Assembly: GCA_965178125.1 (NCBI GenBank)
Contig: OZ237736.1
Coordinates: 1,612,001 to 1,676,000, forward strand
DNA: 64,000 nucleotides
Source: Bilabrum cf. latius
Taxonomy: Eukaryota
Reading direction: 5' to 3'
Of the stretch, positions 1 through 63,988 are shown piece by piece (the stretch's first letter is position 1; every line of letters begins with the position of its first letter). The position numbers and the translations under genes are program-made. The notes under the pieces were generated by a model that was not told the DNA's origin, made no database searches, and saw only the letters and a program-made list of their open reading frames with translations.

Positions 1-3000
1 CCCCCTGCCTACGCGTCGGCCCCCTCGTCAGGGCCCGTGGCGGCGGACTTGCCCCTGGACGCCCCGCTCTGCGTGTCGCTGGTGCCCTCTGCCTGGCCAG
101 GCAACCTCGCCCGCATGCCGGCCTCGGCATCAGCCGCGCTGGGCTCCCGCCCGGACCGAGGCACCCGCTCCGGCACGGGCTCGGCGGCCGACCCGGAGTG
201 AGACCTCTCCGCGTCGCTGATGATCCCGGTCGCAGGCACCACCTCGTCCTGAGACACGTCCTCCTGTCGGGCGGAGGAGCCCCCTGCGCCGTCCTTGGGG
301 GCACCTGCCCCAGCTCGCCGGGCCCACGAGAGCCGGGACTGCATCTCAGGCCGCCAGCTCTGCCCGTGCTCCATCACTGAGGTCGAACGACGGCGAGACG
401 AAGAACCGGCTGCGGGACCGCTCGACTCATGCACGGATCCAGACGCCTGCGACACCTGCAACGAACCGCTCCCAAACGCCGAGGACTCTGCCCCGGGCTG
501 GTCGTGCGCGGAGTGTGCGGACCCATGGGCTGGCACCCCCTGCTGGCTCCTAGAGTGCCCCGGGGTCTCGTCAAGCAGCGACCGCCGCGAGCCCGAGACG
601 AGTGCTTCCACTTCTCCGCTGGGTCGCCGCTCACGCCTGCTCCTTGGTTTCCCTTGAGTCACCAGAACCGCCAGCCGGGGGGCCCGGGCGGACCCAGATC
701 TCACGTGCGTTGTCCCTTCATTGCGGCCCTGGGGCTGCTCCACGCGGTCCCCTGGGTCAAGCGGAGGTGTTGGAACGACCCCGATAGGCCCTCTGACGTC
801 AGTTCCGCTCGAGTCAGAGCTCCCATGTTCCACAGAGGGTGGGGCCGCTCGCAGACCGACGGAGCGCCGTTCCGACACAGGACTTGCAGCCCCAACCGCG
901 CTCCGCACCCGCGGCGGAGTGGCCACTGCATCGAAGGTACGCCTGCGGCCAATAAACGCACCCCTTGCACCGGGAGGTCCGTCGGCATCGGAGGCTGACG
1001 TCGGCTCCGTCTCGGATCCGCCAGTGGCGAGCCCCCTGCCCATGTCCCTGTCGACCGGCAGGTCAACGGATCCGAATCGGCTCTTGCGGTTGCCCCTTGC
1101 GCCCCGGGTGGAGGGCATTCCGCCCATGCTGCCGCCGCCTATGCCGTGCGATGTGCTCGACCACCCGCGGCGACCGGCCGGGCCGCCCCACGGCCGCTGT
1201 CTGCTCTGCGGCTGTGGAGTCCTGGACTCGCCGGGCCCGTGCCTGACCGCACGACCTGCCCCCGCGCTGATAGACAGACCCCGCTGGTGTGGCGAGCCTG
1301 CGAAACCTGCGGGAGACGCCGCCAGCGGTGAGCTAAAAGCATCCGCGGGAGACGTCATGGCCGCGGCGGCACCCATGAGTCCGAAGGAGAGGCCCGGCAT
1401 GGGGCCACCCACGGGTGTGCTGGCCGCATGAATCCTGGGAGACGGCACTTTGGAAGGCACGCGGCGGTGCCTCCGACGACCAGACAGCGTGCTGCTGTGT
1501 CCTGCCACGCTCCCGGACCGATGACTCCTTGTGCCTGCGGGCGAACCCAACTCCATGGGGCCACCGCCCCCGCCCCCGCCATCGCCATCTCTGCCACCAG
1601 TGCCTCTGCCCCCACTCGCGGCGGTAGCAGCGTCTCGGGTGCCGACGATCACAGACCGGCTGCGGCTGCGGGTCGCAGATTGTGACGAGTGCGATGCTAC
1701 TCCTGTCGTCGAGGCCGCAGCACCTCCAGCGGCCCGCCTCCCGCCCTCCGCGAGCATCCTGCCCTGCGAGGACCTGCGGCGGCTGCCAGGGGCCCTGTGC
1801 GTAGGGGTGGCCTGAGAGCTGGCAGCCATGTGCGTGTTGGTGATGCTGCGGTTCGAGTCCCCGGATTCTAGGGCCCCCCGGCTGTCCTTGCGACCAAACC
1901 CCGCGGTGGAGGCGCCACCGGTCGGTGTGCGCTGCCCCCTGGTCAGCTGGATCTCGGAAGCCGGAGGCAGGGCAGAGTCGCACCCTGTGACCCGTGGCAC
2001 CTCTCGCCCATCCCCGCGGGAGGAGCCTGCAGCCACTGATTGGGACCTGTGATCGCGACTGCTGGTGACTCGCACCCCAGTACCCGCGTCTTCCCCCGGC
2101 AGGGATGCGTCGGCGTCGGCGTCGCCCCCTTCGAATGGTGTGTGGGACTGGGACTGGGACCTCGAGTGGGGGTGCGGGTGAGGAACAGACCCCTGCATCT
2201 GCATGCTCAGCTGCTGCTGCTGCAGCATCTACTGCTGCTAGAGCATCTACTGCTGCATCTGCATCTGCATGGCCATGCTGTATCTCGCCAAACTGCCCAT
2301 CACCCCTGCGCCCACAGGCCCCTGCAGCGCCTCGGACGCTGGCAGCACGCTGCGACTGCCACGCATGTGCGACCGCCGTCTCCCTGCACCGCCGGCTCCG
2401 CCCGGTGTGCTGCCCCCTCCACCACTAGTCCCATGCCCGCTGAAAAACCACCCATGATGGCCTCCTGAGCTGCTCGTAGACCCCCCAGCGATCGCCCCCA
2501 GCTGGGGGGATCTCCCAGAATGCACCGGGGCCCGAGCTGCACCGAACATTCCGCCCATTCCGGCCCCAGGTGTCAGTGTACCGCCCATTCCCATCCCCAA
2601 CATGCTTCCTGGGCTTCGCACAGCGGACGGCATGGTGAAGTGTGACGAGGGCGACTCCACAGCCACCGACCTGGAGCGGCCTCTGGTTTGGGGCAACTGC
2701 AGTCCGCCCATGCCCAAGCCCACGCCCATCGGCTGTCGATCAGCCGCCCAGTTTTGCCCGCTGTCCTGCCTGCGCCTTCCCGCCCTAGACCCACCCCCAT
2801 CTCGATCTCGACCTCGATCTCGACCTCGGTCTCGGTCGCCCGTTCCCACTCCCCGCCCGCTGCCACCCCAGCCCCCACCCCCACCCCCGGTCTGCTCCCG
2901 GCCCAGCCGCCCCGCCGACGACCGGCGCCCCTCCGGCCCCCCGTGCCCAAGCCTGCTCCCGCTGCCCCCGCGCCGTGGGGCCTCTCTCTAGCTAGACCGG

Positions 3001-3644
3001 CCTCCCACCGAGTGCCCCGCCACACTACCCCCCGCAACTCCACCCCCTCCCCCCGGCGGCCGCCGCCTCTCTCTCCCCATTGCCATGCCACGGCTGCCCG
3101 CGGAGCCCTAGCGGTCCAGGCGAGAGGCCGGGGACAGCGCGCCCCTCTCTCCCGCCCGATCGGACTCGTCGCCTGACCCTCGCGCCCCTCGGTGGGGGAT
3201 GCCGCCCGAGCCGCCACGCTCCAGAATGCCGACGCTGCTGATCGAGGCACCGGTGGCAGAGGAGGCAGCTCGGCGATCCCGCACTCTTCCGTGCCGTGGC
3301 TGGTCCCTATCAGGCGTATGTGCCCCTGCCATTGCTGCAAATACCTAAGAGGATGACCGGGCGGCAGCGCCACTGCCACTGCCGTCGTCGGTGCCTTGAC
3401 CTGGTTGCATCGAGGCAGATCGAGAAACCATGGAAGGAATTGACATGGACGAGACGCGCCTACCATCTCTATACGATGCAAGCTACTATCGCGGTGATCC
3501 AGTATCGCCCTGTTGCACCATTCCGCTCCCAGTAGCAGATGCATGCGCATTCCGACCCGTGGATTCCAGCATGGCTGTGTGGACTGTCGAAGCCACCGAC
3601 CCACGACGCCGATCACTTTGCTGGTCCTGCTAGGGCGACGACAT
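1..3644 (-). CDS. Hypothetical low-complexity S/G/R/Q-rich protein, >1200 aa, 3'-partial (runs off the window), 10 in-frame TAG
   Basis: One frame runs from ATG 3644 (upstream in-frame TGA at 3720-3722) to the window edge. It joins ORFs 3108..3332, 2247..2849 and 9..2228. The only interruptions are TAG at 3630, 3486, 3483, 3345, 3108, 2988, 2247, 2238, 2229 and 9. No recognisable domain. Confidence 0.75.
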
Positions 3645-4260
3645 CACTGTATGTATTGCAATGAGGATTCGTGCGCGCTGACACACAACAGCACTGCGAA
3701 CGGCTAGGGTCGCTCCAAATCAGCAGTGTTCGGTGGGCCTCCCTGGCTGGTGTTCGAACCAGCTGCTGCAAGTGCGCAGCCGCCAGACCCGAGATAGCCA
3801 GTATTCAACTTGTATCGGCTGGCCTTACGTCCACAAAACGGGCCAGACGACAGGTTCTTGTGGAGGTAGACCTTGGCCTCGACTTCGCAAGCGGTTGCAA
3901 CCGGTTATCACTCGATTCGTGGTCGCAACTGAGTTCACGGTAGATCTATAGTAGGGGCAGCACTGCCTTGGCAAGTTGCCTTTGTGGAAGTTTGGGGGTT
4001 GTGGCCAGTAGAAGTTTGCAGCAATACGTTGAAAGTGCATCGAGGTGGGTGAGGCTTGGGGTGGCACTCGAGCTGGGCAACATGGTGAGTATCACCCACG
4101 TGGCGCGCCCGGCCGAACGTGTGCAGGTGTGTGGTATGGTGTTCGCAAGCGGCGCAATTTGCCTTGTATATCCTTGTTGCCGTGCGGGTGACGGTACCTC
4201 GTGGCCCCCCGCTGCCCCCTATCTTCATCTTCATCTACACCTTCATCTTCCACACTGTCT

Positions 4261-5898
4261 TCATCGTTTCTTGCCGTACACGGCGAGCAGCTTGTCCTTG
4301 TGCTGGGGAGGCACGACCTGCTGCTTGAGCATCGCTGCCGTGGGTGGGACCACATGGATCACGCGGCGGCCAGGGGCCTCCACAACCCCTGCACGGTCCC
4401 TGTCCAGCAGGTCCTGCCTCAGCTTCGCGAAGGCACCTGCGCTGGCGGCATCTCGCGGGTCTGGCTGCACGACGAGGAAATGCCTGCCCTCACGCATGGG
4501 GAACCAGGCCTGAATCTTGTCCAGGTGGGCGCGCGCATGGATGCGGTACTCGGTGGGACTGCGGGGGCAGGGCTTGGGCAAGGGGACTCGCATGCGGAGG
4601 ATGGGACACTCGACACTAGAGAAGCAGCCAGGGATAATGGGCATGCGTGGGACCGGAGCAGTGCCTACGGCGCGACAAATCCAGCACAAAAGTCGATCGG
4701 CGGAGCACGGGGGAGCATGGAGACAACAAGAAGCATCTCACAGCTAGACGCCGACGTAGTCATCGCTTGAAGAGGCCCGAGCTAACTGCACCTGGAGCTC
4801 GCACAGCCCCGGCATGATGAGCTTGCCGCTGCCAAGCACATCTGCGGCGCTTACGTCTCCGGCAGCCCCGGCATCGTTACCAGACGCGTGGTCTGCAACA
4901 CCGGATGAAGATGAAGATGCAATAGCCGATGACGATGATGATGATGATGTACCACTGGATACGGCAGCTGCTGGGTTGTACGCATCTGATGATGCGGCAG
5001 CAGCTACTTGATCCGAAGAGAACGCGGCCCTCAGATCTGATGCCGCTGCAGCCCTCGGATCTGATGCCGCTGCAGCCCTCGGATCTGATGCCGCTGCAGC
5101 CCTCGGATCTGATGCCGCTGCAGCCCTCGGATCTGGTGCCGCTGCAGCCCTCGGATCTGATGCCGCTGCAGCCCTCGGATCTGATGCCGCTGCAGCCCTC
5201 GGATCTGATGCCGCTGCAGCCCTCGGATCTGATGCCGCTGCAGCCCTCGGATCTGATGCCGCTGCAGCCCTCGGATCTGATGCCGCTGCAGCCCTCGGAT
5301 CTGGTGCAATCGGCAGCGTCGGTGGCGCAGACGCCTGTCTCGGGTCCTCCACTGCGCCAGGCTGCATGCCCGCTGGTGGCAACCCCCCTGACTAGTCTAT
5401 TCTAGCACGTTTCGAATCCGGCATGTCATGGCTGCCCGCCAACCCTGGTGCTAGTGCACCGGGTGCTTGTCCCAACAAACCACCCCCACTCGGTGGAGGC
5501 GGGGCAACGCGCTGCCCAAGGCTAGGGGCACCCATCTACGGCAGCGAGTTAGATAAGTTTCCGGCAAACTATGGCTGTACATTTGCTTCTCCAATTGGTC
5601 GCTTCTGGCCAAGCGCTGGAGCGGACCCGCCCCATCTCGAAGCTGTCGGAGCCACGGGGACCTGTGCTTGACCAATCTGGGCTACAGAACCAGCTTGGGG
5701 GCGTTGTATGTTACTTGGATGCTGTTTTCTTTCATCAGACGAGATAAATTTCACCCCGGCTGCGGTTGGGCCTGAATAGAAGGAGCCTGATCCTGCAGGA
5801 TTCTGAGCCGGAGCTGGGAGAGATGACTGCGGCCCAAGACCAACCTCCTTCACGCCAGCACCCCAGCCACCATCTCCATCACTATCTGAATCACTCAT
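4261..5898 (-). CDS. SPOC-domain protein with a central (SDPRAAAA)n repeat, about 484 aa, 4 in-frame TAG
   Basis: Exons 5898-4742 and 4558-4261; intron 4741-4559 is GTGAGA...CCGCAG. TAG at 5569, 5536, 5392 and 4744. The spliced C-terminus SGKLIMPG...GV*LPTEYRIHAR...AFAKLRQDLLDRDRAGVV...IHVVPP fits the SPOC pattern (LP..L.I..R; F..L...L....RAGV; PP). Ends TGA. Confidence 0.7.
5028..5308. repeat. Coding 24-bp tandem repeat, 11 full copies plus a partial (unit ccctcggatctgatgccgctgcag)
   Basis: Directly visible near-identical units. Encodes (S/P)DPRAAAA on the minus strand within the SPOC gene. Confidence 0.95.
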
Positions 5899-6051
5899 AA
5901 TCTGCGTTACGATGTCCTCTATTCGCGACTACAAAGAATATATTTTGTTGAGGCAAATGTCTGTAACGTGCAGTTACCGAAATCCTCGCGAACCAAAATC
6001 GCCAATGTTCAAGCCAAGTGTTCTACGTTAGAACGCAAACTATTGCCCACC

Positions 6052-9000
6052 ATGGCAGCTCGTCTGGGGGTGACGGCTATTATGGCGACTTGGGCTGCGA
6101 CTAGATACTTTTCAGCCTCATCAAATGGTCCCAGAATGCGTGGGTCGCAGGTGTCCGGTGCTTAGGGTGCCGATGAAAATGAGCTCTCTTCCATTGAAAC
6201 CGACAGCGCGCTGGATGATTTGCGTGACTTGGTGATGCAGGCCGGTATCACTCGTGGACAGTCTCCGGCAATATCCTATGCAAGCGGACCGGCCTGGTAC
6301 GTGGTTGCGACGCCAGCTTCACGAGGCTTTCGAAGCAACAGTGATCGATAGGGCTCTTTCACGGGCACTGTCGGATCTAACGTGGAACCCGGTCAATTAG
6401 TAGGCGGATACCGGTCTCGATCTCCCTCTTTTATATCGTTTGTTGCTGAATTGCAGGCAGACAGCAGCAGGAAAGGATCCGACCAGTTCGGTATGCACGG
6501 CAGCGCTTTCAGGCATTCTTCCCAATTATCGGCAATCGGTATGTTAAGGGACATTGTTGCAGACCTTGATGCAGCTCTGGTTCCTGCATGGTCGGCGTTC
6601 CACGAGCCGAGCCCCCCTGGACTGGTTCCCGATCATCGCGGCTTTGGGCCATCGAAAGAGAGAAGTATCGCGGATGAAGGTATTCAATAGAGTACTCTTT
6701 TTCATGCCACTGCTTGGGCTGCACTGGAAGCCGCGGCAACTGGCACTCCCATGGATGCGACGGTTGGGCAAACGGAGGCATCCGCCCCGGACGACTCGGT
6801 GCCTGGGGGGGAGGCACCTGACCCGATCCTCGCCGAGGAGGCACCCAAGGGGTCTGCCCCTGCCCCAGTTGCCGTGGACCCATTGGTTGGACTTGCATCA
6901 TCGGCGAGCAGCACCGAGCAAGAGGCCGCCGGGGAGGCCCCCCCCCCCATGTCGGAGCTGACTCCGTGGGGCTCCTCCATGGCCGCCCAGCTGTCGCAGT
7001 GGACCTTCGGAGACCCCAGCAAGGAAACCGTCGCCTGCCTGCGTCGGGTGGAGAAGAAGTACGGCTGCCAGGCCGTGGGGTGTGACGACCAGGTGCAGGG
7101 GTTCATCAACTACCTGGCCACGCACGAGTGCACCATGGGGGAGGTGAACCTCAAGTGGCTCTCGTGGATCTGCATGATCGTCTGGCTCGTGTACCTCCTA
7201 TTCATGCTGGGAGACACGGCGGATGAGTTCTTCTGCCCCGTGCTGGACCAGATCGTGATCGTCACGCAAATCTCTCCAAACCTGGCGGGAGTCACCTTCC
7301 TGTCCCTCGGTAACGGGGCGCCCGACGCGGCCGCCTCCATCGCCGCCACACTCTCGGGGCAGCTGGATGTGGGCGTCAGCGCCGTCATCGGGGCCGGTGT
7401 CTTCGTGACCACGGTGGTGATCGCGGCGGTGATCCTCTCCAGCGAGGTGACCCTCAACCGGCGGCCCTTCCTGCGGGACACCATCTTCTACCTCGTGGCC
7501 ACGCTCTACCTCCTGGTTTGCTTCTCGGACAAGAAGGTGCACCTCGGGGAGGCCCTCGGCTTCCTCGGCATCTACGTCGTCTTTGGATCCGTGGTGGTGG
7601 TGGGCCGGCAGCTGTACCAGGGTTGGAAGGGCAAGGAGGCTGAGGAGCAGGGCGATCTGCTCGACATGGGGGCAGCGGGTGGCAAGGGTGCCGGCGCGAT
7701 GGTGGTACCTGCGAAGGGCAAGGTGCTCACGGCAGGTCCCGGGCCTAGCCCCCTGGGGACCAGCCGGCGGTCGCTGCTAGGCGACGGGCCGGCTGGCGGC
7801 AGCGGTCGAGCAGGAGCAGGTGGCGGGAGGTCGCGCGCCTTTTCGGACGAGTGGATGGCTTCGGAGCGGAAGACCGAGGTGGCGGCTCGGCTGCACGACG
7901 TCATGGAGGAGGAGGGCGATGAGGAGGACAGCGGGGCCGAGGGCGGGGAACAGGGACAAGGACAGGGACAAAGTCAGGCGGGCGAGTCATCGAGCGGGGC
8001 CGGGGTTGCTGCTGCTGCACCTGGCGCCGAAGACCGCAGCCCCAGCGCTGTCCGTCGGCACGCGAGCTGGAAAGACGCCAAGAACAGCGCCATGCGGTCG
8101 TCAGCCCGCTCGCTGGTCATGGGTAAGAAGCGCAGGTCGCTGCTGCCGGGAGACAAGGTGTTTGCCGAGGCGGCCGTGGAGGCGAGGACCGAGAGGGAGG
8201 CAGAAGTGGGGGGAGGCGCGGCGTCTGCCAGGAGCGGCCTCTCGCCGAGCCTACGCGAGGGGGGTGGTGCGGGCGCCCCGTTGCGGCTCCGCAGCGGCAG
8301 CCTGGTGGAGCGGGGTGACGGCTCCGGCGTGCACGGTGCAGTGGCGGCTGCCATCTTCGGTAGGCGCAAGAAGGGCCGGTCCCACAAGCACGCCAAGCAC
8401 GGGAAGGACGGGTACCACAAGCCGGCTGGGTTTTTCCACACGCATGAGAGGAGGGCCCGCATGTGGATGCGATTCGTGGTCGACGAGGAGAAGTCCATCC
8501 ATTCGGCGCGGGAGCGGGCTGCCAGGGGGCGCCAGTTGGGGGGGGGAGTCAAGGGTAGCTTGAACGTGGAGCACTCCGATGTCGCGAGCGACCGCCAATC
8601 GGACCAGGGCCCCGCCAAGTGGGACGAGAGCGGGGTGCCTCTGCTGCCCAGCTCCGACGGAGAGGGCGACGGCAGCGACGACGACGGAGAGGAAGAGGAG
8701 GCGGACATGTGCGATGCGTTCTGCGGAGACGACACGCTGCTGGGCAAGGCCCTCAACATGATCTTGTTTCCCAGCAACTTGCTGCGGCAGATCACCGTGC
8801 CAATGCTAGACGAGGACAGCTACGACTACCGATTCGTGGCGGTTACCACGTTCTTTGGGCTACCGTTCATGGCAGTGGTGGGGTACCAGACCATCGGGGC
8901 CGACCTCAGCGGTCTAACGGGTCCCATCCTACCGGGGGCCCCGGCGGGCGTGTGCGTGCTGCTGGTGCTCGGCCTCGTTGGGCTAGCCAAGAGCGTGGCC

Positions 9001-9615
9001 ATGTTCTTCACCCTTCCACGGGACGAGATCCCGCAGAGCTTCTTCATCGTAATCCCGCTACTGTTCCTCGGCTTCTTGACGAGCGTGTGCTGGATCATCG
9101 TTATTGCCAATGAGATCGTGGGGCTGCTGGAGGCTCTCGGCCTGCTGCTGTCAGTGCCGACCAGCGTGCTGGGGCTCACCGTGCTGGCCTGGGGCAACTC
9201 GCTGGGCGACCTGATCGCAGACATGACCGTGGCCAAGGAGGGCAAGCCCGAGATGGCCATCGCAGGCGCCATCGCAGGGCCCGGCTTCAACCTGGCGATC
9301 GGGCTGGGACTCAGCCTCGTCATCGGGGTGTCCAACCGCGTGGCTCAGCACGCGACCGACCCCTCCATTCCCCCGTACATCGACCTGACAAACCCGGACA
9401 ACACCACTCCGCTCCCGCCATCCTAGATCCGCGTGGTATGGACGCTGTTCGGGTTCTTGATCCTGAGTCTCGTGTCCATGCTCGTGATCGTGCCTCTGTC
9501 AAGCGACTCGTCCACCGGCAAGTACACCATGCCACGGTGGCTGGCCTACTACCAGCTGGCGTGCTACGCGGTATTCATGGTGCTTGCTTTCACCTTCACC
9601 TTTGCGGAGTTTTGA
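6052..9615 (+). CDS. Cation/Ca2+ exchanger (CCX/NCLX-like, CaCA superfamily), about 1187 aa, 4 in-frame TAG
   Basis: Alpha-1 repeat AGVTFLSLGNGAPD and alpha-2 repeat LGLTVLAWGNSLGDLIAD. The frame is open from ATG 6052 (cccaccATGG) except for TAG at 6163, 6349, 6688 and 9424. The last two TM helices (ORF 9433..9615) follow TAG 9424 in frame. Ends TGA. Confidence 0.9.
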
Positions 9616-54646: not shown

Positions 54647-55825
54647 ATGGCAAGTGCGTCTGCAGCACTCTTCGAATCCCTGCGAACCAGATGCGCAAGT
54701 CGCAAGCGCAGCAGGGATACAATCCGAGAAGCTGCACTAGAAGCTGTGGCTGCTCTTCGCATAGATGCCGTGAGGTCAAGCTTGAGGGCGGCGGCGCGAT
54801 CTCGAACTCGGCGGGAGCAGGAGGTTGTGGCGCTTGCGGCAGAGGCCGCGGAGCAGCTAAGCAAGGCACAGAACGTGCTGGCCATGCACGCCGATGGCTC
54901 TTTATTTAGCGAGCAAGCGCTTGGGATTGCGAAAAGAGCGGCGTTTTCCACAATACCTGTGAAGGCTCGCCTTCGGTCAACAGCTGTTTCGCAGCTCGCG
55001 GAGAGTAGCAGCGAAGATTCGAACAGGCAGGCACCAAAGTTACCGCCGGCACCTACGTTACCGATGCTGCAGGCGTCACGCTTGCGTCGCCTTGCCGTGA
55101 AGCCTCCAGCAGACGTAGACCTCGGGCCTGATGCAAACCTTGAGGACACCTTGCTGCGGCCGGGAGGACTCGCTGGCGCTGGGTCGGCAGCGGCAGCGGC
55201 AAAGGCAGCATCACAATGGCTTGGGATCGAGATGCCTCACGGGGCTGCCCGAGCGGCATCAGGAGACGAAGCGTCTCACGGGTCCTCCTCTGCCAGTGGA
55301 CCCTCTGACTAGTCGCCTGAGGCTCGGGCAGTCGATAACGTGCTGTCCTCCATGCGACTCAGGGCGGAGCAGGAGATCGCGAATGAGAAGGAGAAGGAGA
55401 AGGAGAAGGAGAAGGAAAAGGAGCGGCGGGAGAGAAGCGGCGCAGCCACGTCAGGCCCCTCCAGCATGTCGACTGCCAGTGGAGCAAGTGCTGGAGGTGG
55501 GGAGGCAGCCCCGCAAGTTGCGTCAGCACAGGAGGTGCACACGGCCGTGATGGCGCTGGATCCTGCTCCCAGGAAGGCCCTCAGGAAAGCCCTAAAGCGG
55601 CTATTGAAGGCGGGGTGGACTCCCGGGGCTCCTCTGGGCGCCGGGATGGTGGGTCCCAGGCAGAGTGTGGCCCCTGAGGTGTGGAGGGGGCTGCCGGCCG
55701 GTGTGCGGGCCGCTCTTGGCGGAGGGGAGGAGGCCATGGCTCCGGATGGCGGAGGGGGCGGGGGTTGCGATAAGGAGGAAGAGGGGGAGGCCGAACCTGC
55801 CAGCAAGCGGAGGCGAACCGAGTGA
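54647..55825 (+). CDS. Hypothetical protein with a (GAGAAG)n EK repeat, 1 in-frame TAG
   Basis: ORFs 54647..55312 and 55340..55825 share a frame and are joined by TAG 55310. The C-terminus has an NLS-like KRRRTE. Ends TGA. Confidence 0.6.
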
Positions 55826-55934: not shown

Positions 55935-57131
55935 TCACCCGAAAGGCAGCAGGCGCTCTTTGGCCGCATTGAAGGCCTCCCTGGTCGCGAATCGCTGGCC
56001 CGTCCTTCGCTCCTTGAAGCGAGCAGGGAGGCCAGTCACCACGCAGCGTCGCCGCGCCGGCCGGAGTGGAGGCCCGGCTGCCGCCGCGATGTACGCGTTC
56101 CTGCTGCTATCATCAGGACCATGGGCGCCTCGGCCGCTCTGGAAGTCCTCGTCGCCCTCGTCACGCATGGCGCTCTGGCCAGCCCTGGCAGAGGCAGAGG
56201 CAGAGGCAGAGGCTGCAGAGGCACCGGACGTGCCCTCCGTGCCAGCGACCTGGACACGGCGGCCTGCGAACGCATCCCCGAAGACAACCGCACCCAGTGC
56301 AGCCGCGCTGCCGTGCTCCGGCGGTCGTGCTGCATCCCCAGCGCGGGCGGCCTGCCAAGCGGCCAGGCCGGCAGGGAGGCATGAGCTGCCCGTCGGCAGG
56401 GGGGCAGAGGGGGGGCGGTGCAGGCGCCCCGATGCATGCTGTGCAGCTGTGGCGGATGCACGCTGCAGGTCGTCTAGTGTCGGACCCAGGGGCTGGTCTC
56501 GGTCGAGAGCGGCTCCGAGTGGGACCAGCGGGCGCGAGCCGAGGGCGAGGGCGTGGTGGGCGGGGAGCGAGGCGCTTGCCGTCGGGCCTCCCCGCCGTTT
56601 CGGCTTTCTCCGGGTCTTTGCTCTGGATTTACCCTTTCGCTTACTTCCTTTTGGCCCGCGCTTGGCGCCTTTTCCGCCCGAAGCCCCAAAGTCGGCGTCA
56701 GAATCTGAGCCGTCGCTGTCCTCAAGGCTGAACTCGTCGTCGTCATCAACCGCATCGCCTCCCATGCCGGTACCAGCATTACCATAACCTCCCATTTCTT
56801 CAACTGCCGCTTGGGTAATTGCCCCCCGCATGCGAACCATGTCTGCTTCCAGGGCGCTGGTTCTTGCGTCTGCTCCAAGCCCCAGCCAAGCCGGGACCCT
56901 CTCCACTCCTCCGACGGCATCGACCCAAGCCCATCCTGCGCCAGATGTGGCAGCAGAGTCAGCATCTCGAGCTCTCTGCGAGGCTCGCCTTGCCCTCTGT
57001 CCTGCGCCCTTCTTTTGAGCAGCGATGCCTCGATTCTACCCAGATCGTTCTGTCAGCATCTTCTGCGCCCCTTTATGACCCGATGCAGCCATTGCTTCGT
57101 CCCATGCCCTCCGTGCAGCCTTTCCCGACAT
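55935..57131 (-). CDS. SWR1/INO80 chromatin-remodelling subunit (SWC6/ZNHIT1-like region with a YL1_C-type C-terminus), 1 in-frame TAG
   Basis: ATG 57131, TAG 57036. RTSALEAD, an acidic tract and a basic tract are followed by YIAAAAGPPLRPARRRCVVTGLPARFKERRTGQRFATREAF. Ends TGA. Confidence 0.7.
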
Positions 57132-57306
57132 GTTTTTCGAGTGCCAATCCTTGTATTAGCTTGTCTAGCATCTGTCTGCGGAGGGGTCCACTGCAACGGG
57201 CAGTGCGCTGCAGGTGCACAAGAAACGTGTGTTGTTTTGCAGGAAGCCGGACCACCTCACCAGCATGCCGTGAAACTATTATCTTGGTTATATTGAGATA
57301 CCAGCC

Positions 57307-58476
57307 ATGGCACACGGGGACTAGCTCAGCACTGCGGCTTCAGCAACTGGCCGAATGAATTCTGATTCAACCACTAGCGTAATCTACAAGTCACTGGATG
57401 AATCGTTAGAACTAGTAATTCGGTAGCGACCATCAGAGTCCAGTAGCCATGGATTTAGCGTGTGGGATTCTTCTGTAGTGATGTGCAGATACCTGGAGAC
57501 CACAAAGCGACGCGAGGCACTTGCTGGCAGGACTGTGCTCGAAATCGGCAGTGGTTGCGGTCTAGGAGGAATATTTGCAGCTCGTTATTTAGGCGCATCA
57601 GTTATAATGTCTGATTTACCTGAGATTTTGGATATTCTGCGGCTTAATGCCGCTTCAAGCCGCTCTGCTGGCTCTAGTGATCATGATGAGGGAGGTGCCC
57701 TAGCAGATGGCAGAATAGCTTCGATCTCCGCCCTTGACTTCGATGACCCGAACGGGCCCTCGGTAGCAGTAAAAAAAGCATTGGCTCTGAAGCCACGCTC
57801 GTCCAATTTGAAAGCGGAAGCATCGTCTGATGCGGCAACTGCTGAGGCGGGACCATGCCACAAGGTCGACCTGATTATCGGAAGTGACATTTTGTTTAGC
57901 GAATCGCTCGTTGTTCCATTGCTCGAGACTGTTGGAGTCACCATGCAGGAGCACGGTGCTCGCCGCGCTGTGATCGTGCACGAGACGAGGTGCACAGACC
58001 TCACCTCTCGCTTCGAAAGGGAGGCGCGCTCGAGGTTCGCACTGTCGAGGGTGCGCAGGAAGAAGCTCCCGCCCGAGTGGTGCCCTGCCAACATAGATGT
58101 GTACATCTTGTCGCCACCTATCCGGGGGTGGGCCGAGGCACGCCCCGCAGAAGGACGCGAGGGCGAGGGTGAGTGCGAGGGCGGGGAGGAGACTGAGGCA
58201 CTTGGAGCAGCGACCGGCGGTGCTTCGGGCGTGTCAGCCAGCAAGGGCGCAGCTGCTCCGGCTGTGTCAAGGGCCACCACGGCGGTTGACTAGTGCGCAG
58301 AGCCTGTCGCACGTGACCCTCCGGCCGGGTCCGGGGCAGTTGCACCGTCGGAGTCGCAGGGGGCACCACTGGCAGCAGCTGCGGGCAAGGCGCGGCGCAG
58401 CAACCGGGCAGTGGTGAGAGAGATGCTGCGAAGGAAGCGGGCCACCGATAAGGATCATGATGCTACATTGAAGTGA
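57307..58476 (+). CDS. METTL21/VCPKMT-like protein-lysine methyltransferase (Methyltransf_16), 3 in-frame TAG
   Basis: LELVIR*RPSESSSHGFSVWDSSVVMCRYLE, motif I VLEIGSGCGLGGI, SDLPEIL and DLIIGSDILF. TAG at 57322, 57424 and 58291. First TGA at 58474. Confidence 0.85.
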
Positions 58477-58598: not shown

Positions 58599-61500
58599 TC
58601 ACCCCTTCCTTCTCTGGGCCTTGGTTCGACCCGACCCCCGACCCCCGTACGAGCCCTTGGATCCGATCCGAGGGGCCCTCGCCTTGTTGCCTGCCCTCCC
58701 GCTGCCACCGCCGCGGGCCAGGCCCTCCCTGGCTGCCTCGTTGGCCTCCGTGGACTGCCTCTGCATGAACGTGAGGAACTCCTTGTACTTGGCCGTCTGC
58801 TCCGCGGATCGAGCCGCCTGCTCCCGGTCCTTCTCCTCCGCTAAGAAGGCAGAGTCCTGCCGCAGCTCCCGAGCCACAGCTCGCTTCTCCCGCTGCAGTT
58901 CCTTGCGGAGCTTCTGCACCTCCACGGCCTCCCTCTGCGCGGGAGTCGCATCCCTGGGCAGCCGCCCGGGGTTGTACGCCCGCATGCCATCTCCCTCCAG
59001 CTCGGGATCCAGCTGGGCCAGCTGCTGCGGCTTGGCCGCCCGGCGAGCCTGCATGCGGAGCTCCCCGCGGTCCATGCGCTCGGACCGCAGCATGCCACGG
59101 GCCAGTCTGTGAGCAGCGGCAAGCAGGTCCGTAGCGCGCCTAGACCCGCAGACCGCACCACCGGACCAGTCCACCAGCTGCGTGAGCAGTTGGAGCGCAG
59201 ACAGCACCGGCGCCAGCAGCTCAGGACCGTGCCCGCGCCCCTTGCATGCAACCACAGAGGCAGCCGCAGCCTGTGCGGCCTGACACACGAGACCTGCGCA
59301 ATCCGAGCGGCCCTCCCGAAGCCCCCGCGCCCACATGCCCCAGCATCGATCCGCGGCGGGCAGGTCTCCGATGGCACCTGCCGCCGGCGGGGCCGAGACC
59401 AGGGCAGCACCGAGGCTCCTGGCCCACTTCTTGCTGACTGCAGACCGGCCCTCCTTGTCCTGTGCACGGAACACGGCAGCTGTCACGGCTAGCAACACGC
59501 AGGACACGCCGTGCACTGCCTCTAGAGCAGCGCGCCGAGCCGGCACCGCCGCGTCCTGCGCCGCGGTGGCAGCCTTGAGGCAGGCCCACGCGTCGGCAGG
59601 GGTGCTCAGAGGCAGCATCCCGCCCGGTGCGCTGGCCCGCTCCCCGGCGTGCGCTGGGCCCGGGCTGGCGAGAGATGCCGCCGCCCTGGCCAGCACTGCT
59701 GCTGCCGGGGTCGCGATCACGTGCTGGAAGTCCGAGGCGGGGAACACTCTCAGGCACAGACGCATGATCCGGATGTGTCCCGGGTGCATGCGCCGGGGAT
59801 GCTGGCACGCGAGACAGACGCTACGCGCCACCTATTCTGCTCTCGTCGAGTCCTCACCGTGCATCTCCTCGACGATGGAAGCTGCCTTTGCAGCGGCTAC
59901 AGCAACGGCCTCTGCGTGCTCTGCTGGCATGCACAGGCTTGGAAGCGTGGTTTGAAACAGGTCTACGGGGACTGCATCCCGCACCTCGGCATCCAGCTTC
60001 GCGAGCGCCTCATCGGAGAGCTTGCTGGCAGCTGTGGCAGAGCCGCTCTACTTGCCTCTCTTCCTCGCCAGACCCTTGGCGGCACGGCCAAACACCTGCC
60101 GGGCATGCGCCGCTCGCACCTCTGCTGCGTCCTCCTGCCGCGCCACTGGCCCTAGCAACGCCGCGCGCAGGCCATGCACACCGCCATCATCGGAGGCATC
60201 AGAGTCGGTGCTCTCAGCGTCGCTGTCACTAGCATCAGTGGGCTCGTCCATCGCACCCTTCTCACGCCCCGCGGCACCGCCAGAGATCCCCTCCAGCGCC
60301 CTCCACCAGACACGGACGGCACCAGCCCGCAAAGCTGGCATCGCTGTGAGCGCCGCAATGCACGGAGCGGCGGCTTCCGAGTATTCGCTGCTCATCCATG
60401 CGCAGTTGGCCATGCGAGGAGGCTCGCGCAGCATCGCAGAGACCCTTGGTCCTGACGCTTTACCAGCTCCTCGGCTGTCGGACCCCGCGGCATCTTCCTC
60501 GTCTTCCGATGGATGCAAAGGGGCTGGTGCCATCTCGAGCAGGAGCAGAGCGAGCAGGCGCAGCAGCCGGCCTACGTTCGAAGCCCGTAAATGGGGCGAA
60601 TAAGCCGCAAGGATTCTCCTCAGGACTTCTTTCAGCGCGGCGGCGCTCAGCTGGACCCTGTCTCCTTCGGCACTTTCCAGAACAGCACACAGCGAGAGGA
60701 TCATCTGCCTCAGAGCTTCTGGGGTGGAGGGGCAGGGGAGCACGAACGGGAGTCTTGCAATCAACGATCGCTCCGCCTTGGATTTCACCGATGAAGCCAG
60801 CCTCCCGCTCTCAGTTGCTGCTGCTGCGCTCGCTGTTGAACTAGCACTCCACGATGCAGCTGCCGCCTTCGAAGGCTACGGTGCTGGCAGGCGCAGGTAC
60901 TCGCTGGCAGACGATTGAGCATGCAGCGGCACCGCCTTGGGCTGTAAGGTGCCACCACCACTGCCGCTGCTGTCCTCTCGGCCCTTCGCTGCCTGCATGC
61001 TCGCTTGTTGTTGCTCCCTCGCCTACGCAGCCCTGTCGAACTCACGCGCCAGCAACTCGATGGTGGGCGGTGTCCAGTCCTGCGGCAGCCCAGCCCCGAA
61101 TGCGAGCTCTCTCCAGTGGAGACGGTCCAGAGGCACGGCGCTCCACGCCCCGCGGAACTGAAACGCAGCGGAAGGATCCCAGGACGTGCTCTTGCCACCA
61201 GAGCTGATCCGAACGGTAAGCAGCTGTGGCCGGACTCCGGCGGCCAGCTCAAGCAATCGATCCGAGGAGATGCGACCCAGGGCACCATCCGCGGGACCCA
61301 CCGCGTTCTGGCCAAGCGCTGGCTTCCCTCGAGCGCCATCCGCACCTGCCGCGAGCTGCATGGAGCTCACCAGTGCATCCCCGTCACCTGCACGCCTGCT
61401 GGACCCCCTCTCGCGGCGGGTTTTGCCAGCACCTTTGGTGGCTCCACCAGGCTGGTGCGCTGCTGCTCCTCCATCAAGATCTGATCCGATCGCATGCCCA

Positions 61501-63035
61501 GACCGCAGGCCGGGACGCACAGCCTGGCCTTCCAATCCGCCAGCCAGCACGACTCGCCCGTCCTGGCCCCAACCTGCACCCTCCGCGGCAGCTGCAGACT
61601 CAGATCCTCCGGCCATACGCGCCCGGCGCATCTTCTCTGCCTCCAGCAGCGCAGACAGCTCCTACTGTGCGGTCTCTTCCTCGGTGCGGGCCCTGTCCGT
61701 GGCGATGGCGCGCGTATGCTGCGCAAGTGCACCCAGCAGCGACTCAAAATCGTCGTCATCGTCATCGTCATCAGCGGGTTGAGAAGCGGGGCCAGGTTTG
61801 CCGTTCTTCTTTGCTCGACCTCCGGCCTGCTGCTCCTGCTCCTGCTCCTGCTCCTGCTACCCACCGGTCTCGTGGTCGTCATTCCCATCATCACCCCCAT
61901 CCGAGCTGTCGCTGTCACTGTCGCTGTCGCTGTCGCTGTCACTGTCGCTGCCACCACCACTCTCGCTACCACCAGCGTGTGCCTCAGGCCTACCAGTGGC
62001 GGTGCGAGCAGCCTTGGCTGGCCGCTCTGCGTCCTGCCCAGCTGAACCCCCCCCTTGGGTACCCTATGCAGTGGCTTCCTCCGAGCAGCCACCGCCAGTC
62101 TCAACTGCACCTGCTCCTGCTCCTGCCGCTGCAGCCGCCGCCGCCTCTGCCCTCTTGCGTTTCTTGCCGATCCAAGGCCGGCTCCCCTCCCTATCATCTG
62201 CCGTGTTCCCCACAATGGCCTTGGCCCTAAGCGTGGCAAGCACATCGTCCGCCTCCTGGTCCAGCCTGCCGAGGGCCTCATCCATGGCCACCTTCTCGCG
62301 GCGGGCCAGTGCCTTGCGCTCCTTGTCGCGGGCGATCACCTCTGCGATCACCTCGCTGCGGCTCTTGCGAGGGGCATCATCTTCCTCCTGTTCATCGCTG
62401 GGGCCCCTTTGAGAGGCACCTGCAGGGCCACTGCTGGCAGAAGCGGCCCCTGCACGCTGTTGTCGTTCCATCCAAGCCGGGAGCGGCTTCACACCACGCA
62501 TCGGGGCTGCGCTCTGGGAAGCAGCCTGCCCCCCACCGAAATGAAGATTCGCAACCCAATCCGCACTGAGACCCTCGCGGTCGGTCTCTGCTGCTTTGTC
62601 GTCAAAATCGAATCGATCGGCAGCTCCCCGCCCCTCCTGCTGCATTTTCCCGTAGTCATCGTCCCGCAGAGCTCTCCCAAAATGCGTCAATGGCTCCGCA
62701 GGTCCACCTTCAGTGTCATCATCCAGCTAAAATTTCTACTTTTTCTTGCTGCGTCTTGCTCGCTGCAGTTGCCGCTGCCGTTCCCTCTAGGCTCTTGCAA
62801 GCATGATCTCTTCCTAATCTGCGGCGGCATCGTCTGCTTTCGCACCAATCCTCCTATCATCAAACTGGTTTGATTTGCCAAGGGCGCGGTATTCCGGCAG
62901 AAGCTCCCTCTTTCTTTTCTTGACAGCCTTGTCCCTAGCTGCAGCGACATTGCGGGACGACCCTCGAACTCTACGATTCAAGACATCAAATCGCTAATGC
63001 TTGTTGGCACGCGATTCAAATGGATTGGATGACAT
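58599..63035 (-). CDS. NOP14: Nucleolar protein 14 (SSU processome), about 1478 aa, intronless, 12 in-frame TAG
   Basis: MSSNPFE...KSNQFDDRRIG...EEIMLARA*RERQ...LTHFGRAL, NLHFGG, KSRSEVIAEVIA, ATDRARTEEE, LPFVLPCP, FPASDFQHVIATP and REKRAVARELRQDSAFLA. TAG at 62994, 62814, 62787, 62736, 62727, 62064, 61857, 61662, 61023, 60876, 60048 and 59832. Ends TGA. Confidence 0.92.
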
Positions 63036-63572
63036 AGTTTCTGGGAAGTTTGGCAGGTTTACTCGAGCGATTCAAGATAAATCCCCGGGAAAGGCAAGTG
63101 CCTAGCGGGGCACACCACGCGCGAGACGAGTGTGAGGAGTGCGCTTGTGATGGCACCAGATCAGATTTAGATGGAGTCCAGTGGCACGGTGGGCTGTCTT
63201 GTTGCATCCAGTGGACCCTGTACAGAGCCAATCATTACGAGACAGCAGGCAAGCGCGGTGACTGATATATTTCTAAATAGACCCCCGTTTCGATTGCATG
63301 ACCACGCTGCCACCACATTCTGGTACAGCCCATGGCCCTACACGGCCACCCAAATCAAACTGGCCCAACTCCCGTGCGACCTCCGCACGAGCTTGAACCA
63401 GCCATCACTAACTGAACCCGACTCGACAGTCGGATCCCCCCCATGACACCACAAGAGGCAACCCCCCAGCTGCCTCGCAGCCTGTGAACCTGGCCCGACT
63501 GTTAGGCCAGCTTCGCAGGCTCACAGAAACACTGGACTGGACCCTCCTCATCAGTTGCACAGCCTAGATTGC

Positions 63573-63988
63573 TCAGATGTGGCTAGGGTAGAGCATCACT
63601 CGCAGCGACGCGCCCATGGCGGCAGGCGGCAAGTTGCGGCGGAACTTAGCCCGAACAATGCCAGAGGTACCATGAGAACGAACAACCTTGCCCCAGATGA
63701 CCCTGAACTTGGTGCCATCGCGCTCGGCCTTGCCCTTATAGATGTACGCTACGCGCTTGCCAAGGTAGAACTTGCCCTCCTCGGTCGTCTCTACACCCTC
63801 TACCTTCACGAGAGCAGTGTGGGAGTACTGGTTCACCTTGGAACTGCAGAACGAAAAAGGCGCAAGTATTTATACATGCTGTGCATCAATGCTTTCTGGA
63901 ACAGCTGCATTGTAAAGGCTAAACTCAACAGGCAGTCTCACCCCTTGTATCCCACAAACTTCCCACGCACGTACAAACGAACGGGCTC
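63573..63988 (-). CDS. RPL35A: 60S ribosomal protein L35a (eL33), 5'-partial
   Basis: Exons 63988-63942 ([15 protein letters not shown]) and 63843-63573 ([17 protein letters not shown]...[12 protein letters not shown]...[24 protein letters not shown]...RVMLYPSHI). The first exon lies outside the window. Ends TGA. Confidence 0.96.

What the first reader, a model, noticed from the sequence alone, without database searches (positions are those of the whole stretch)
1..63988. Non-standard nuclear genetic code: UAG is a sense codon (Gln) across this window of a GC-rich eukaryote
Seen in the sequence: about 100 in-frame TAG codons (hand count 101) in 18 genes. The frame and homologous sequence continue seamlessly across them, with no frameshifts and no internal TAA or TGA. 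Affected genes include SMC2, CCT5, NOP14 and PGM, which are unlikely all to be pseudogenes. No gene ends at TAG. Established knowledge: UAG=Gln with UAA/UGA as stops is the assignment of NCBI table 15. Decoupled UAG/UAA nuclear codes are rare, reported in the fornicate Iotanema (UAG=Gln), an uncultured rhizarian (UAG=Leu) and a few ciliates, and most recoded nuclear genomes are AT-rich. Inference: this GC-rich flagellate with 90-240 nt introns looks like none of those lineages and may be an independent, undescribed reassignment.
Basis: partly seen in the sequence, partly recalled or inferred. Interest (0 to 1): 0.97.

Follow-up and report, generated by a model that had tools for sequence, protein, structure and literature searches.

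The report
UAG read as glutamine, stramenopile nucleus
This GC-rich nuclear DNA comes from a protist, probably a stramenopile, that reads the stop codon TAG as glutamine while TAA and TGA still end genes; this rare genetic-code change has apparently not been reported from that group.

Summary
With TAG read as sense, eight ORFs of 1239-2043 aa open; the longest standard-code ORF is 911 aa. I count 99 in-frame TAG, 0 TAA and 0 TGA in 16,201 codons of 18 genes. All 20 ORF ends are TGA (18) or TAA (2).

Spliced, polyadenylated transcript contigs from other public runs match the DNA without a single difference across 18 of these TAGs. Splicing and editing are therefore excluded for those sites.

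A metagenomic relative (L001, SMC2 81.6% identical) uses TAG the same way. Nine of its 11 SMC2 TAGs align with CAG in the window. One lies at the Q of the SMC signature motif LSGGQ, which is Q in 146 of 147 homologs. A window TAG aligns with CAA in L001.

TAG therefore means Gln, and TAA and TGA remain stops (NCBI table 15 pattern).

Single-gene trees place the organism among stramenopiles. Eight literature searches found no nuclear code variant reported for that group.

The suppressor tRNA and eRF1 could not be examined because no genome is held.

Verdict: this is a real new lineage carrying a known, rare kind of code.

The parts
25746..29525 (-). SMC2 (condensin subunit), intronless ORF, 2 in-frame TAG (nt 29223, 27336), ends TGA
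   Evidence: Pfam SMC_N and SMC_hinge. An X5 transcript contig covers 25764-29635 with 0 differences. The TAG at 29223 aligns with CAA in L001.
19911..21683 (+). Phosphoglucomutase main exon, 1 in-frame TAG (nt 20922), ends TGA; intron 19668-19910 lies upstream
   Evidence: Pfam PGM domains I-III and C. GT..AG joint, and contig 19911-21783 with 0 differences. In PDB homologs the TAG column is G or Q.
22268..23747 (+). CCT5 (TCP-1 epsilon) last exon, 1 in-frame TAG (nt 22338), ends TGA, poly(A) at 23781; introns 22009-22108 and 22170-22267 lie upstream
   Evidence: Pfam E 3e-159. PDB CCT5 E 6e-227. Contig 22268-23781 has 0 differences and a poly(A) tail. TAG column in 118 aligned homologs: E 32, Q 31, A 23.
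58599..63071 (-). NOP14, 12 in-frame TAG, ends TGA
   Evidence: Pfam Nop14 E 1.5e-68. The TAG at codon 14 aligns with Q of human NOP14.
14860..17139 (-). CNNM-type metal transporter (CNNM, CBS, cNMP domains), 1 TAG (nt 15994), ends TGA; intron 17140-17281
   Evidence: Pfam; CT..AC joint.
18322..19120 (-). Ras/Rab-like GTPase last exon, 2 TAG (nt 19069, 18895), ends TGA; introns 19121-19213 and 19242-19330
   Evidence: Pfam Ras; joints. The TAGs align with D/P and E in Rab structures, at variable positions.
5890..9615 (+). Na/Ca exchanger family membrane protein, 4 TAG, ends TGA
   Evidence: Pfam Na_Ca_ex E 3e-42.
47397..51788 (-). WD40 protein, 3 TAG, ORF ends TAA
   Evidence: Pfam WD40.
29894..35287 (+). 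Unknown protein U2 (1797 aa ORF), 14-15 TAG, ends TGA; divergent neighbour of SMC2, with synteny kept in L001
   Evidence: X5 contig 30547-35306 has 0 differences across 11 TAGs. A window TAG aligns with Q in the L001 homolog.
35974..40833 (+). Unknown membrane protein U3 (1619 aa ORF), 24 TAG, ORF ends TAA
   Evidence: No homolog at E<=1e-5 among proteins of 890-2834 aa.
41205..47336 (-). Unknown protein U4 (2043 aa ORF), 11-12 TAG, ends TGA
3..3719 (-). Unknown low-complexity protein U1 (runs off the window), 10 TAG, three of them inside a Gln-rich tract (nt 2247, 2238, 2229)
57274..58476 (+). Methyltransf_16 lysine methyltransferase, 3 TAG, ends TGA
55935..57155 (-). YL1 C-terminal domain protein, 1 TAG, ends TGA
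24983..25618 (+). Unknown protein U6 last exon, 3 TAG, ends TGA; intron 24895-24982
   Evidence: GT..AG joint, and X5 contig with 0 differences.
4738..5973 (-). Unknown repeat protein U5, 4 TAG, one at the second-last codon before TGA
11784..12806 (+). Sulfatase plus PAN domain exon, 1 TAG
54353..55825 (+). Unknown protein U7, 2 TAG, ends TGA
35584..35934 (-). Dynein light chain LC8, no TAG, ends TGA at the conserved ...LLFKSG C-terminus; highly covered
   Evidence: poly(T) loose end at 35330. The family name is recalled from the sequence and was not searched.
24098..24570 (-). Ribosomal protein S30-like gene (two exons, intron 24336-24565), no TAG in the coding part, ends TGA; the highest contig depth in the laid stretch
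   Evidence: CT..AC joint and depth. The family name is recalled from the sequence and was not searched.

Best explanation
The window is nuclear DNA of a GC-rich protist, most likely a stramenopile. In its cytosolic translation UAG is a glutamine codon, and UAA and UGA are the only terminators (the pattern of NCBI table 15).

TAG behaves as a minor synonymous Gln codon. It makes up about 14% of Gln codons. It is rare in strongly biased, highly expressed genes and common in weakly biased ones.

The trait is shared with at least one other species seen in metagenomes, so it belongs to a lineage and not to one genome.

Inferred, not shown: decoding by a tRNA-Gln with anticodon CUA derived from tRNA-Gln(CUG), together with an eRF1 that no longer recognises UAG. 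This would have been made easier because TGA already ended about 90% of genes.
For: Shown:

1. ORF statistics. Only TAG-as-sense opens eight ORFs of 1239-2043 aa. The TAA- and TGA-as-sense controls do not.

2. Codon counts. There are 99 TAG against 0 TAA and 0 TGA in 16,201 codons of 18 genes. These include the essential, conserved SMC2, CCT5, PGM and NOP14.

3. Transcripts. Contigs of runs X5, X7 and X8 carry GT..AG joints and poly(A). The X5 contigs listed cover 18 TAGs with 0 differences from the DNA.

4. Relative L001 (L002 and L003 are identical to it). Its SMC2 is 81.6% identical and has 11 in-frame TAG.
   - 9 of the 11 align with window CAG (Fisher p 1.6e-11).
   - One is at the Q of LSGGQ, which is Q in 146 of 147 non-gap homologs. 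Another is at a column with Q in 77 of 146.

5. Window TAGs against homologs.
   - SMC2 nt 29223 aligns with CAA in L001.
   - A U2 TAG aligns with Q in L001.
   - NOP14 codon 14 aligns with human Q.
   - Three TAGs sit in a Gln-rich tract of U1. 14 of 103 TAGs neighbour a Gln codon, against 8.3% of other codons.

6. TAA is not sense.
   - There are 0 TAA among 12,744 codons of ten genes that hold CAG 390, CAA 88 and TAG 75.
   - L001 has 0 TAA against 37 TAG in about 3,090 codons.
   - Reading TAA through does not lengthen the conserved genes.

7. ORF ends: 18 TGA, 2 TAA and 0 TAG of 20.
Against: Several window TAGs lie at columns where homologs mostly have another residue:
- SMC2 codon 96: E in 101 of 143, Q in 7.
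- CCT5: E 32, Q 31, A 23, and the two nearest sequences have E.
- PGM: G in four of the five PDB alignments shown, Q in one.
- Ras-like GTPase: D/P and E.
- U2 codon 2: D in L001.

The decisive LSGGQ site is in the relative, not in the window organism, where that codon is CAG.

No tRNA was found in the window or in the three loci scanned (L001, L004, L005), and no genome is held. So no CUA-anticodon tRNA and no eRF1 were seen.

'No gene ends at TAG' is partly built into how the ORFs were defined. U5 has a TAG two codons before its TGA.

There is no protein-level evidence.
Confidence: 0.9

Rival explanations
1. UAG is sense but ambiguous. It encodes Gln inside genes and also terminates some genes depending on context, as in ciliates with context-dependent stops.
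For: The ORFs were delimited without TAG, so a TAG terminator near a 3' end would be read through unnoticed. U5 has TAG-CTG-TGA at its end.
Against: 0 of 20 ORF ends need TAG. PGM, CCT5 and LC8 reach the conserved C-terminus and stop at TGA. The CCT5 poly(A) follows its TGA by 34 nt. One TAG within two codons of an end among 17-20 genes is close to the chance expectation (about 0.2).
Confidence: 0.05
2. UAG encodes another amino acid in the window organism, with glutamate the most likely, and not glutamine.
For: Homologs mostly have E at the window's SMC2 codon 96 (E in 101 of 143). The two nearest CCT5 sequences have E at its TAG column. A (QE)n repeat in NOP14 would be perfect with E.
Against: The 81.6%-identical relative certainly reads TAG as Q (LSGGQ), and none of its 11 SMC2 TAGs aligns with a window GAG or GAA. 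At the window's TAG sites L001 has CAA, Q, A and D, and never E. NOP14 codon 14 aligns with human Q. TAGs also sit in a Gln-rich tract. A different meaning in the window organism would need two successive reassignments.
Confidence: 0.03
3. Both UAG and UAA encode Gln (the UAR=Gln code, table 6), and TAA is simply too rare in a GC-rich genome to be seen here.
For: UAG and UAA usually change together. GC3 of 0.63-0.89 disfavours A-ending codons.
Against: A-ending synonyms are still used: the ratios CAA/CAG 0.23, GAA/GAG 0.24 and AAA/AAG 0.13 predict 10-18 TAA beside 75 TAG. Observed are 0 in 12,744 codons, and 0 beside 37 TAG in the less GC-rich relative. Two ORFs end at TAA. Reading TAA through does not lengthen any conserved gene.
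Confidence: 0.02
4. There is no code change. The TAGs are real stops in pseudogenes, assembly errors, or sites removed by splicing, editing or occasional readthrough.
For: None beyond the standard-code expectation.
Against: 99 TAGs and no TAA, TGA or frameshift occur in 18 genes, including single-copy essential ones. The same TAGs stand in spliced poly(A) contigs of three runs from at least two other studies, with 0 differences. An independent species shows the same pattern.
Confidence: 0.005

Closest known systems
Iotanema spirale (Fornicata): nuclear UAG=Gln with UAA and UGA as stops (Panek et al. 2017, PMC5304391: listing and start of abstract seen; cited in PMC11687900 passages)
   Same: The same codon table: only UAG is reassigned, to Gln, and UAA is kept as a stop.
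   Different: An unrelated supergroup (an anaerobic metamonad). Here the organism groups with stramenopiles and the DNA has 63% G+C.
Ciliates with UAG-only=Gln: Protocruzia tuzeti and two phyllopharyngean lineages (PMC11687900, Discussion passages)
   Same: UAG=Gln with UAA not reassigned; these arose independently several times.
   Different: Ciliate macronuclear genomes. The window has ordinary GT..AG introns of 88-243 nt and long multigene DNA, and its CCT5 and SMC2 do not group with ciliates in my trees.
Other decoupled UAG codes: uncultured rhizarian exLh (UAG=Leu) and Scotinosphaera (UAG=Ser) (PMC11687900 passages)
   Same: UAG is reassigned while UAA stays a stop.
   Different: A different amino acid. 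Here the LSGGQ site and the TAG/CAG/CAA interchange point to Gln.
UAR=Gln codes (table 6): many ciliates, Ulvophyceae, Hexamita, Streblomastix, Amoeboaphelidium (PMC11687900 passages)
   Same: A stop codon captured for Gln, presumably by a mutated tRNA-Gln.
   Different: Here TAA is not sense: 0 in 16,201 codons, and two ORFs end at TAA.

Membership tests
Nuclear code of the table 15 pattern (UAG=Gln; UAA, UGA stop) | In-frame UAG in conserved, expressed genes with the frame and homology continuing across it | tested here: met
   99 TAG in 18 genes. Pfam and PDB homology span the TAGs in SMC2, CCT5, PGM and NOP14. 18 TAGs are kept in spliced poly(A) contigs.
Nuclear code of the table 15 pattern (UAG=Gln; UAA, UGA stop) | UAG positions correspond to Gln in homologs | tested here: met
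   Relative: LSGGQ column Q in 146 of 147; 9 of 11 TAG align with window CAG. Window: TAG aligns with CAA, with Q in U2, and with human Q in NOP14. Several window TAGs lie at variable or E-rich columns.
Nuclear code of the table 15 pattern (UAG=Gln; UAA, UGA stop) | UAA and UGA are not used as sense codons | tested here: met
   0 TAA and 0 TGA in 16,201 codons. 10-18 TAA would be expected if TAA were a Gln codon. L001 has 0 TAA beside 37 TAG.
Nuclear code of the table 15 pattern (UAG=Gln; UAA, UGA stop) | UAG is not used as a terminator | tested here: inconclusive
   0 of 20 ORF ends are TAG and conserved C-termini end at TGA. However, ORFs were defined by TAA/TGA, and 20 ends is a small sample.
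Nuclear code of the table 15 pattern (UAG=Gln; UAA, UGA stop) | A tRNA-Gln-derived tRNA with anticodon CUA | not testable with these tools
   No tRNA in the window or in the loci scanned (L001, L004, L005). No genome is held.
Nuclear code of the table 15 pattern (UAG=Gln; UAA, UGA stop) | eRF1 N-domain changed so that UAG is not recognised | not testable with these tools
   eRF1 is not in the window.
UAR=Gln code (table 6) | UAA is also a Gln codon | tested here: not met
   0 TAA in-frame; two ORFs end at TAA; TAA read-through does not extend conserved genes.
Ambiguous stop/sense codes (Condylostoma, karyorelicts) | The same codon both encodes an amino acid and ends genes near the 3' end | tested here: inconclusive
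   No gene here needs TAG as its end. One TAG lies two codons before the TGA of U5.
Stramenopiles (taxonomic placement) | Conserved proteins branch within stramenopile sequences | tested here: met
   CCT5: a 99-sequence clade (support 0.941) whose named members are all stramenopiles; the nearest named is Bicosoecida sp. CB-2014, inside a 28-sequence clade (0.978). SMC2: a clade of 5 (0.989) with Pelagophyceae sp. CCMP2097; Saprolegnia is among the best hits. These are two single-gene FastTree trees and most tips are unnamed. The position within the group is unresolved.

The most novel reading that the evidence does not exclude
This may be the first nuclear genetic-code change in stramenopiles. 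It would be an independent capture of UAG alone for glutamine in a deep, poorly sampled, GC-rich lineage with at least two species. The nearest SMC2 among 1.84 billion representative proteins is below 50% identical. TGA-dominated termination under GC pressure, and not AT pressure, would have freed UAG. Because the organism appears in transcript-bearing runs of several studies, it could become a tractable system for studying how UAG and UAA are decoupled at eRF1.
Probability: 0.55. Interest if true: 0.8.

Novelty: new member of a known kind. Interest (0 to 1): 0.72.

Why it matters
Nuclear code changes are rare. Changes that separate UAG from UAA are rarer still. The passages of the 2024 paper I read list one fornicate, one rhizarian, one green alga and a few ciliates (PMC11687900).

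A further, independent case in a GC-rich stramenopile would have three consequences:

1. It would add a supergroup to that list.
2. It would test the idea that stop-codon capture needs AT-rich genomes. Here TGA ends 18 of 20 ORFs and TAG is about 14% of Gln codons.
3. It would give a second non-ciliate system for asking how eRF1 discriminates UAG from UAA.

There is also a practical point. Any annotation of this assembly and of its metagenomic relatives under the standard code will truncate or split most long genes. Under the standard code the SMC2 ORF is cut in two, and the L001 SMC2 has no ORF above 473 aa.

Tried and rejected
- **Whole genome:** not held. Codetta-type analysis, tRNA, eRF1 and paralog searches were therefore impossible.
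- **tRNAs and RNA families:** none found in the window, L001 or L004, and no tRNA in L005. L002 and L003, which are identical to L001, were not scanned.
- **U3 homolog search (24 TAGs):** nothing at E<=1e-5 among proteins of 890-2834 aa.
- **NOP14 full-length search:** only 1 hit, probably swamped by low-complexity words.
- **The look-up of sequencing runs:** no listed holder is on record as RNA. The RNA nature of X5, X7 and X8 is my inference from spliced joints and poly(A) tails. For X5 the tool itself guesses 'probably DNA'.
- **Run X13:** a 90-95% identical relative. Only 40 of 471 differences were printed, none at a TAG, so it gave no codon evidence.
- **Joint 22337 to 22818:** a joint in all four runs that begins exactly at the CCT5 TAG. 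It has TA..AG ends and only 24 letters on the short side. I treat it as a cross-match at the conserved NDGATIL motif, not as an isoform, but I could not inspect the contigs.
- **L004:** 41% identical SMC2, standard code, 68% G+C. It is not a close relative, so it does not date the change.
- **Literature:** eight full-text searches found no nuclear code variant in stramenopiles. The passages read in PMC6733595, PMC4217694, PMC11412368, PMC12152300 and PMC6657734 were irrelevant. Subscription journals and paper supplements were not visible and may hold a report.

Full report
**What is in the window**

The 64-kb window has 62.8% G+C. It is densely packed with eukaryotic nuclear genes.

Pfam identifies the following:
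- SMC2 (25746-29525, minus strand)
- phosphoglucomutase (19911-21683, plus)
- CCT5 (22268-23747, plus; Cpn60_TCP1 E 3e-159)
- NOP14 (58599-63071, minus)
- a CNNM-type transporter
- a Ras/Rab-like GTPase
- a Na/Ca exchanger
- a sulfatase with a PAN domain
- a Methyltransf_16 enzyme
- a YL1-domain protein
- a WD40 protein

There are also seven long ORFs with no family. I recognised two short, highly covered genes from their translations only (names recalled, not searched): dynein light chain LC8 and ribosomal protein S30.

**Check of the observation**

Under the standard code the longest stop-to-stop ORF is 911 aa. If TAG alone is read as sense, eight ORFs of 1239-2043 aa appear. The controls behave differently: TAA as sense gives a maximum of 911 aa and TGA as sense a maximum of 1023 aa.

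The 18 ORFs hold 103 TAG from stop to stop. Counting only downstream of the first ATG, or of an exon start proven by a transcript joint, leaves 99 TAG in 16,201 codons, with no TAA and no TGA.

The in-frame TAG frequency (6.1 per 1000 codons) is about the same as the frequency of the trinucleotide in the whole window (829 in 128,000 positions on both strands). TAG is thus not avoided in frame at all.

One detail needs correcting. The first TAG of the PGM ORF is the last three bases of an intron (19668-19910), not a codon.

**Are the TAGs in the mRNA?**

Public runs that hold this stretch were found. The contigs of four of them were laid on window 17001-37000.

Runs X5, X7 and X8 contain contigs that skip eight introns with GT..AG (or CT..AC) ends: 17140-17281, 19121-19213, 19242-19330, 19668-19910, 22009-22108, 22170-22267, 24336-24565 and 24895-24982. 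These introns are 88-243 nt long. The runs also carry poly(A): 25 A after 23781, which is 34 nt past the CCT5 TGA, and a poly(T) before 35330 for the minus-strand LC8 gene. The runs are not on record as RNA, and the tool guesses 'probably DNA' for X5. I infer that these contigs come from mRNA from the spliced joints and the tails.

The X5 contigs printed in the table cover 18 TAG codons with zero differences and no gaps:

| Contig (window nt) | Gene | TAGs covered |
|---|---|---|
| 19911-21783 | PGM | 1 |
| 22268-23781 | CCT5 | 1 |
| 24746-24894 joined to 24983-25564 | U6 | 3 |
| 25764-29635 | SMC2 | 2 |
| 30547-35306 | U2 | 11 |

In the whole 20 kb, X5 and X7 each differ from the DNA at 2 places and X8 at 3. 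Removal by splicing and systematic editing are excluded for these sites.

**Which amino acid?**

A scan of JGI metagenome contigs with the SMC2 protein found a relative, L001 (10.5 kb, 58.6% G+C). L002 and L003 are 100% identical pieces of the same sequence. Its SMC2 is 81.6% identical to the window's over 1252 aligned residues.

This SMC2 is open only if TAG is sense, as an ORF of 1306 codons with 11 TAG. A neighbouring ORF of 1185 codons holds 13 TAG. The divergent upstream neighbour is a 35%-identical homolog of the window's U2, so synteny is kept.

The codon alignment shows:
- 9 of the 11 L001 TAGs face CAG in the window; the other two face TCT and CGC. Window SMC2 has 55 Gln codons in 1254, so this gives Fisher p = 1.6e-11.
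- One L001 TAG is the Q of the SMC/ABC signature motif LSGGQ. The window and the standard-code contig L004 have CAG there.

I then aligned both sequences with the best 150 of 27,901 SMC2 hits from the 1.84-billion-protein representative library:
- The LSGGQ column is Q in 146 of 147 non-gap sequences.
- Another L001 TAG column is Q in 77 of 146.
- Two more L001 TAG columns have Q as the commonest residue.

For the relative, TAG=Gln is as good as proven.

Evidence for the window organism itself:
- Its SMC2 TAG at nt 29223 faces CAA in L001, although most other eukaryotes have E there (E in 101 of 143, Q in 7).
- Its other SMC2 TAG faces GCG, in a variable coiled-coil column.
- A U2 TAG faces Q in L001, in a block with 7 of 15 identities. 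Another faces D.
- NOP14 codon 14 faces Q of human NOP14 in the solved structure's sequence.
- The CCT5 TAG column is E 32, Q 31, A 23 among 118 aligned homologs.
- The PGM TAG column is G or Q in solved structures.
- The two TAGs of the Ras-like GTPase face D/P and E in Rabs.
- Three TAGs lie inside a Gln-rich tract of U1. Overall 14 of 103 TAGs touch a Gln codon, against 8.3% of other codons.

The only serious rival residue is Glu. Against it:
- None of the window's TAG sites faces E in L001.
- None of L001's SMC2 TAGs faces a window GAG or GAA. One L001 TAG in the weakly aligned U2 homolog does face a window E.
- A different meaning in two species this close would need two successive reassignments.

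I put Gln at about 0.93 for the window organism.

**TAA and TGA**

Ten well-defined genes (12,744 codons) use CAG 390, CAA 88, TAG 75, TAA 0 and TGA 0.

A-ending synonyms are used at 0.13-0.24 of their G-ending partners. If TAA were a Gln codon, 10-18 would be expected.

Reading TAA through does not lengthen SMC2, NOP14, PGM, CNNM, the exchanger, U2 or U4 at all.

L001 has 0 TAA beside 37 TAG in about 3,090 codons, with CAA:CAG of about 0.37.

The 20 ORF ends are 18 TGA and 2 TAA.

This is the table 15 pattern, not the commoner UAR=Gln code. Whether TAG is ever also a terminator cannot be settled from 20 ends delimited without it. Conserved C-termini (PGM, CCT5, LC8) stop at TGA. U5 has a TAG two codons before its TGA, which is within chance.

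**How TAG is used**

TAG is 13.6% of Gln codons in the ten genes. Its use varies with codon bias:

| Gene | TAG per codons | GC3 |
|---|---|---|
| CCT5 | 1 per 492 | 0.85-0.89 |
| PGM | 1 per 590 | 0.85-0.89 |
| SMC2 | 2 per 1254 | 0.85-0.89 |
| LC8, S30-like genes | none | (not computed) |
| U3 | 24 per 1612 | 0.63 |

In the less GC-rich relative it reaches 20-42% of Gln codons across the three L001 ORFs. This is the behaviour of an established, non-preferred synonymous codon.

**Mechanism**

Shown here: UAG is translated, as Gln, in a lineage of at least two species, and UAA and UGA are not.

Inferred from established knowledge of other UAG/UAR=Gln lineages: a tRNA-Gln with anticodon CUA, plus an eRF1 that has lost UAG recognition while keeping UAA. 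The heavy use of TGA as terminator (18 of 20) suggests that few genes depended on TAG when it was captured.

None of this could be tested.

**Who is it?**

CCT5:
- The best named relatives are stramenopiles: Bicosoecida sp. CB-2014 at 75%, Phytophthora at 72%, plus diatoms. The top unnamed metagenomic hits are at 77%.
- In a FastTree tree rooted on frogs, the window sequence sits in a 28-sequence clade (support 0.978) whose only named member is the bicosoecid. That clade lies inside a 99-sequence clade (0.941) whose named members are all stramenopiles.

SMC2:
- The window and L001 are sisters (support 1.0). They join P0216, P0189 and P0159 (0.989). P0159 is named Pelagophyceae sp. CCMP2097, and Saprolegnia is among the top hits.
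- The best SMC2 in the representative library is only 48% identical.

The lineage is therefore a stramenopile by two single-gene trees with mostly unnamed tips. Its position inside the group is open, and it looks poorly sampled.

**Comparison with what is known**

The following comes from passages of PMC11687900:
- UAG-only reassignment is known in Iotanema spirale (Gln), Protocruzia tuzeti and two phyllopharyngean ciliate lineages (Gln).
- It is also known in an uncultured rhizarian and a ciliate (Leu), and in Scotinosphaera (Ser).
- UAR=Gln is known in many ciliates, Ulvophyceae, Hexamita, Streblomastix and an aphelid.

The code found here is therefore a known one.

Eight full-text searches found no nuclear code variant in any stramenopile. 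A 2024 review of stramenopiles mentions codon reassignment only in a mitochondrial reference. The library lacks most subscription journals, and supplements were closed, so 'undescribed' remains provisional.

**Verdict**

I file it as a new member of a known kind: an independent, lineage-level UAG=Gln code, probably the first nuclear code change seen in stramenopiles, in an unusually GC-rich setting.

Noticed in passing
window 22337-22818: All four laid runs show a contig joint that starts exactly at the CCT5 TAG codon and skips 480 nt in frame. It has TA..AG ends and only 24 letters on the short side. It is probably a cross-match at the conserved NDGATIL motif of another CCT subunit, but the contigs could not be inspected.
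   Followed up: partly
L001 1-10507 (L002 and L003 are identical pieces): A metagenomic relative has lower G+C (58.6%) and heavier TAG use (20-42% of Gln codons across its three ORFs). This includes a (TAG GGN)n run that reads QGQGQGQG in its U2 homolog. The same sequence occurs in three separate metagenome records.
   Followed up: yes
window 19800-29600 (runs): The stretch is held, fully or in large part, by runs filed under several different organism labels and studies, including algal and protist metagenomes. The organism may therefore be a frequent companion or contaminant of other cultures. Run X13 holds a 90-95% identical relative.
   Followed up: no
window 4738-5973 (minus strand): Unknown protein U5 carries about eleven tandem copies of an eight-residue unit (DPRAAAAS).
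   Followed up: no
window 32120-32160: An acidic GAT/GAG-rich stretch inside U2 attracts many unrelated contigs, with depth spikes up to 1142 and several false long-range joints. Depth there is meaningless.
   Followed up: no
window 23905-24570 and 35584-35934 (minus strand): An S30-like ribosomal protein gene (start codon split from the rest by a 230-nt intron directly after ATGG) and dynein light chain LC8 are the most deeply covered genes. They contain no TAG, which fits TAG being a non-preferred codon.
   Followed up: partly
window 35974-40833 and 41205-47336: Two very long membrane or low-complexity proteins (1619 and 2043 aa) have no Pfam family. For U3 there is also no homolog at E<=1e-5 among proteins of similar length. 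They are lineage-specific genes and carry the highest TAG load.
   Followed up: partly
L004 9683-13588: A 68% G+C metagenome contig has a standard-code SMC2 (1301-codon ORF, no TAG) that is only 41% identical to the window's. It is not a close relative despite its similar base composition.
   Followed up: yes
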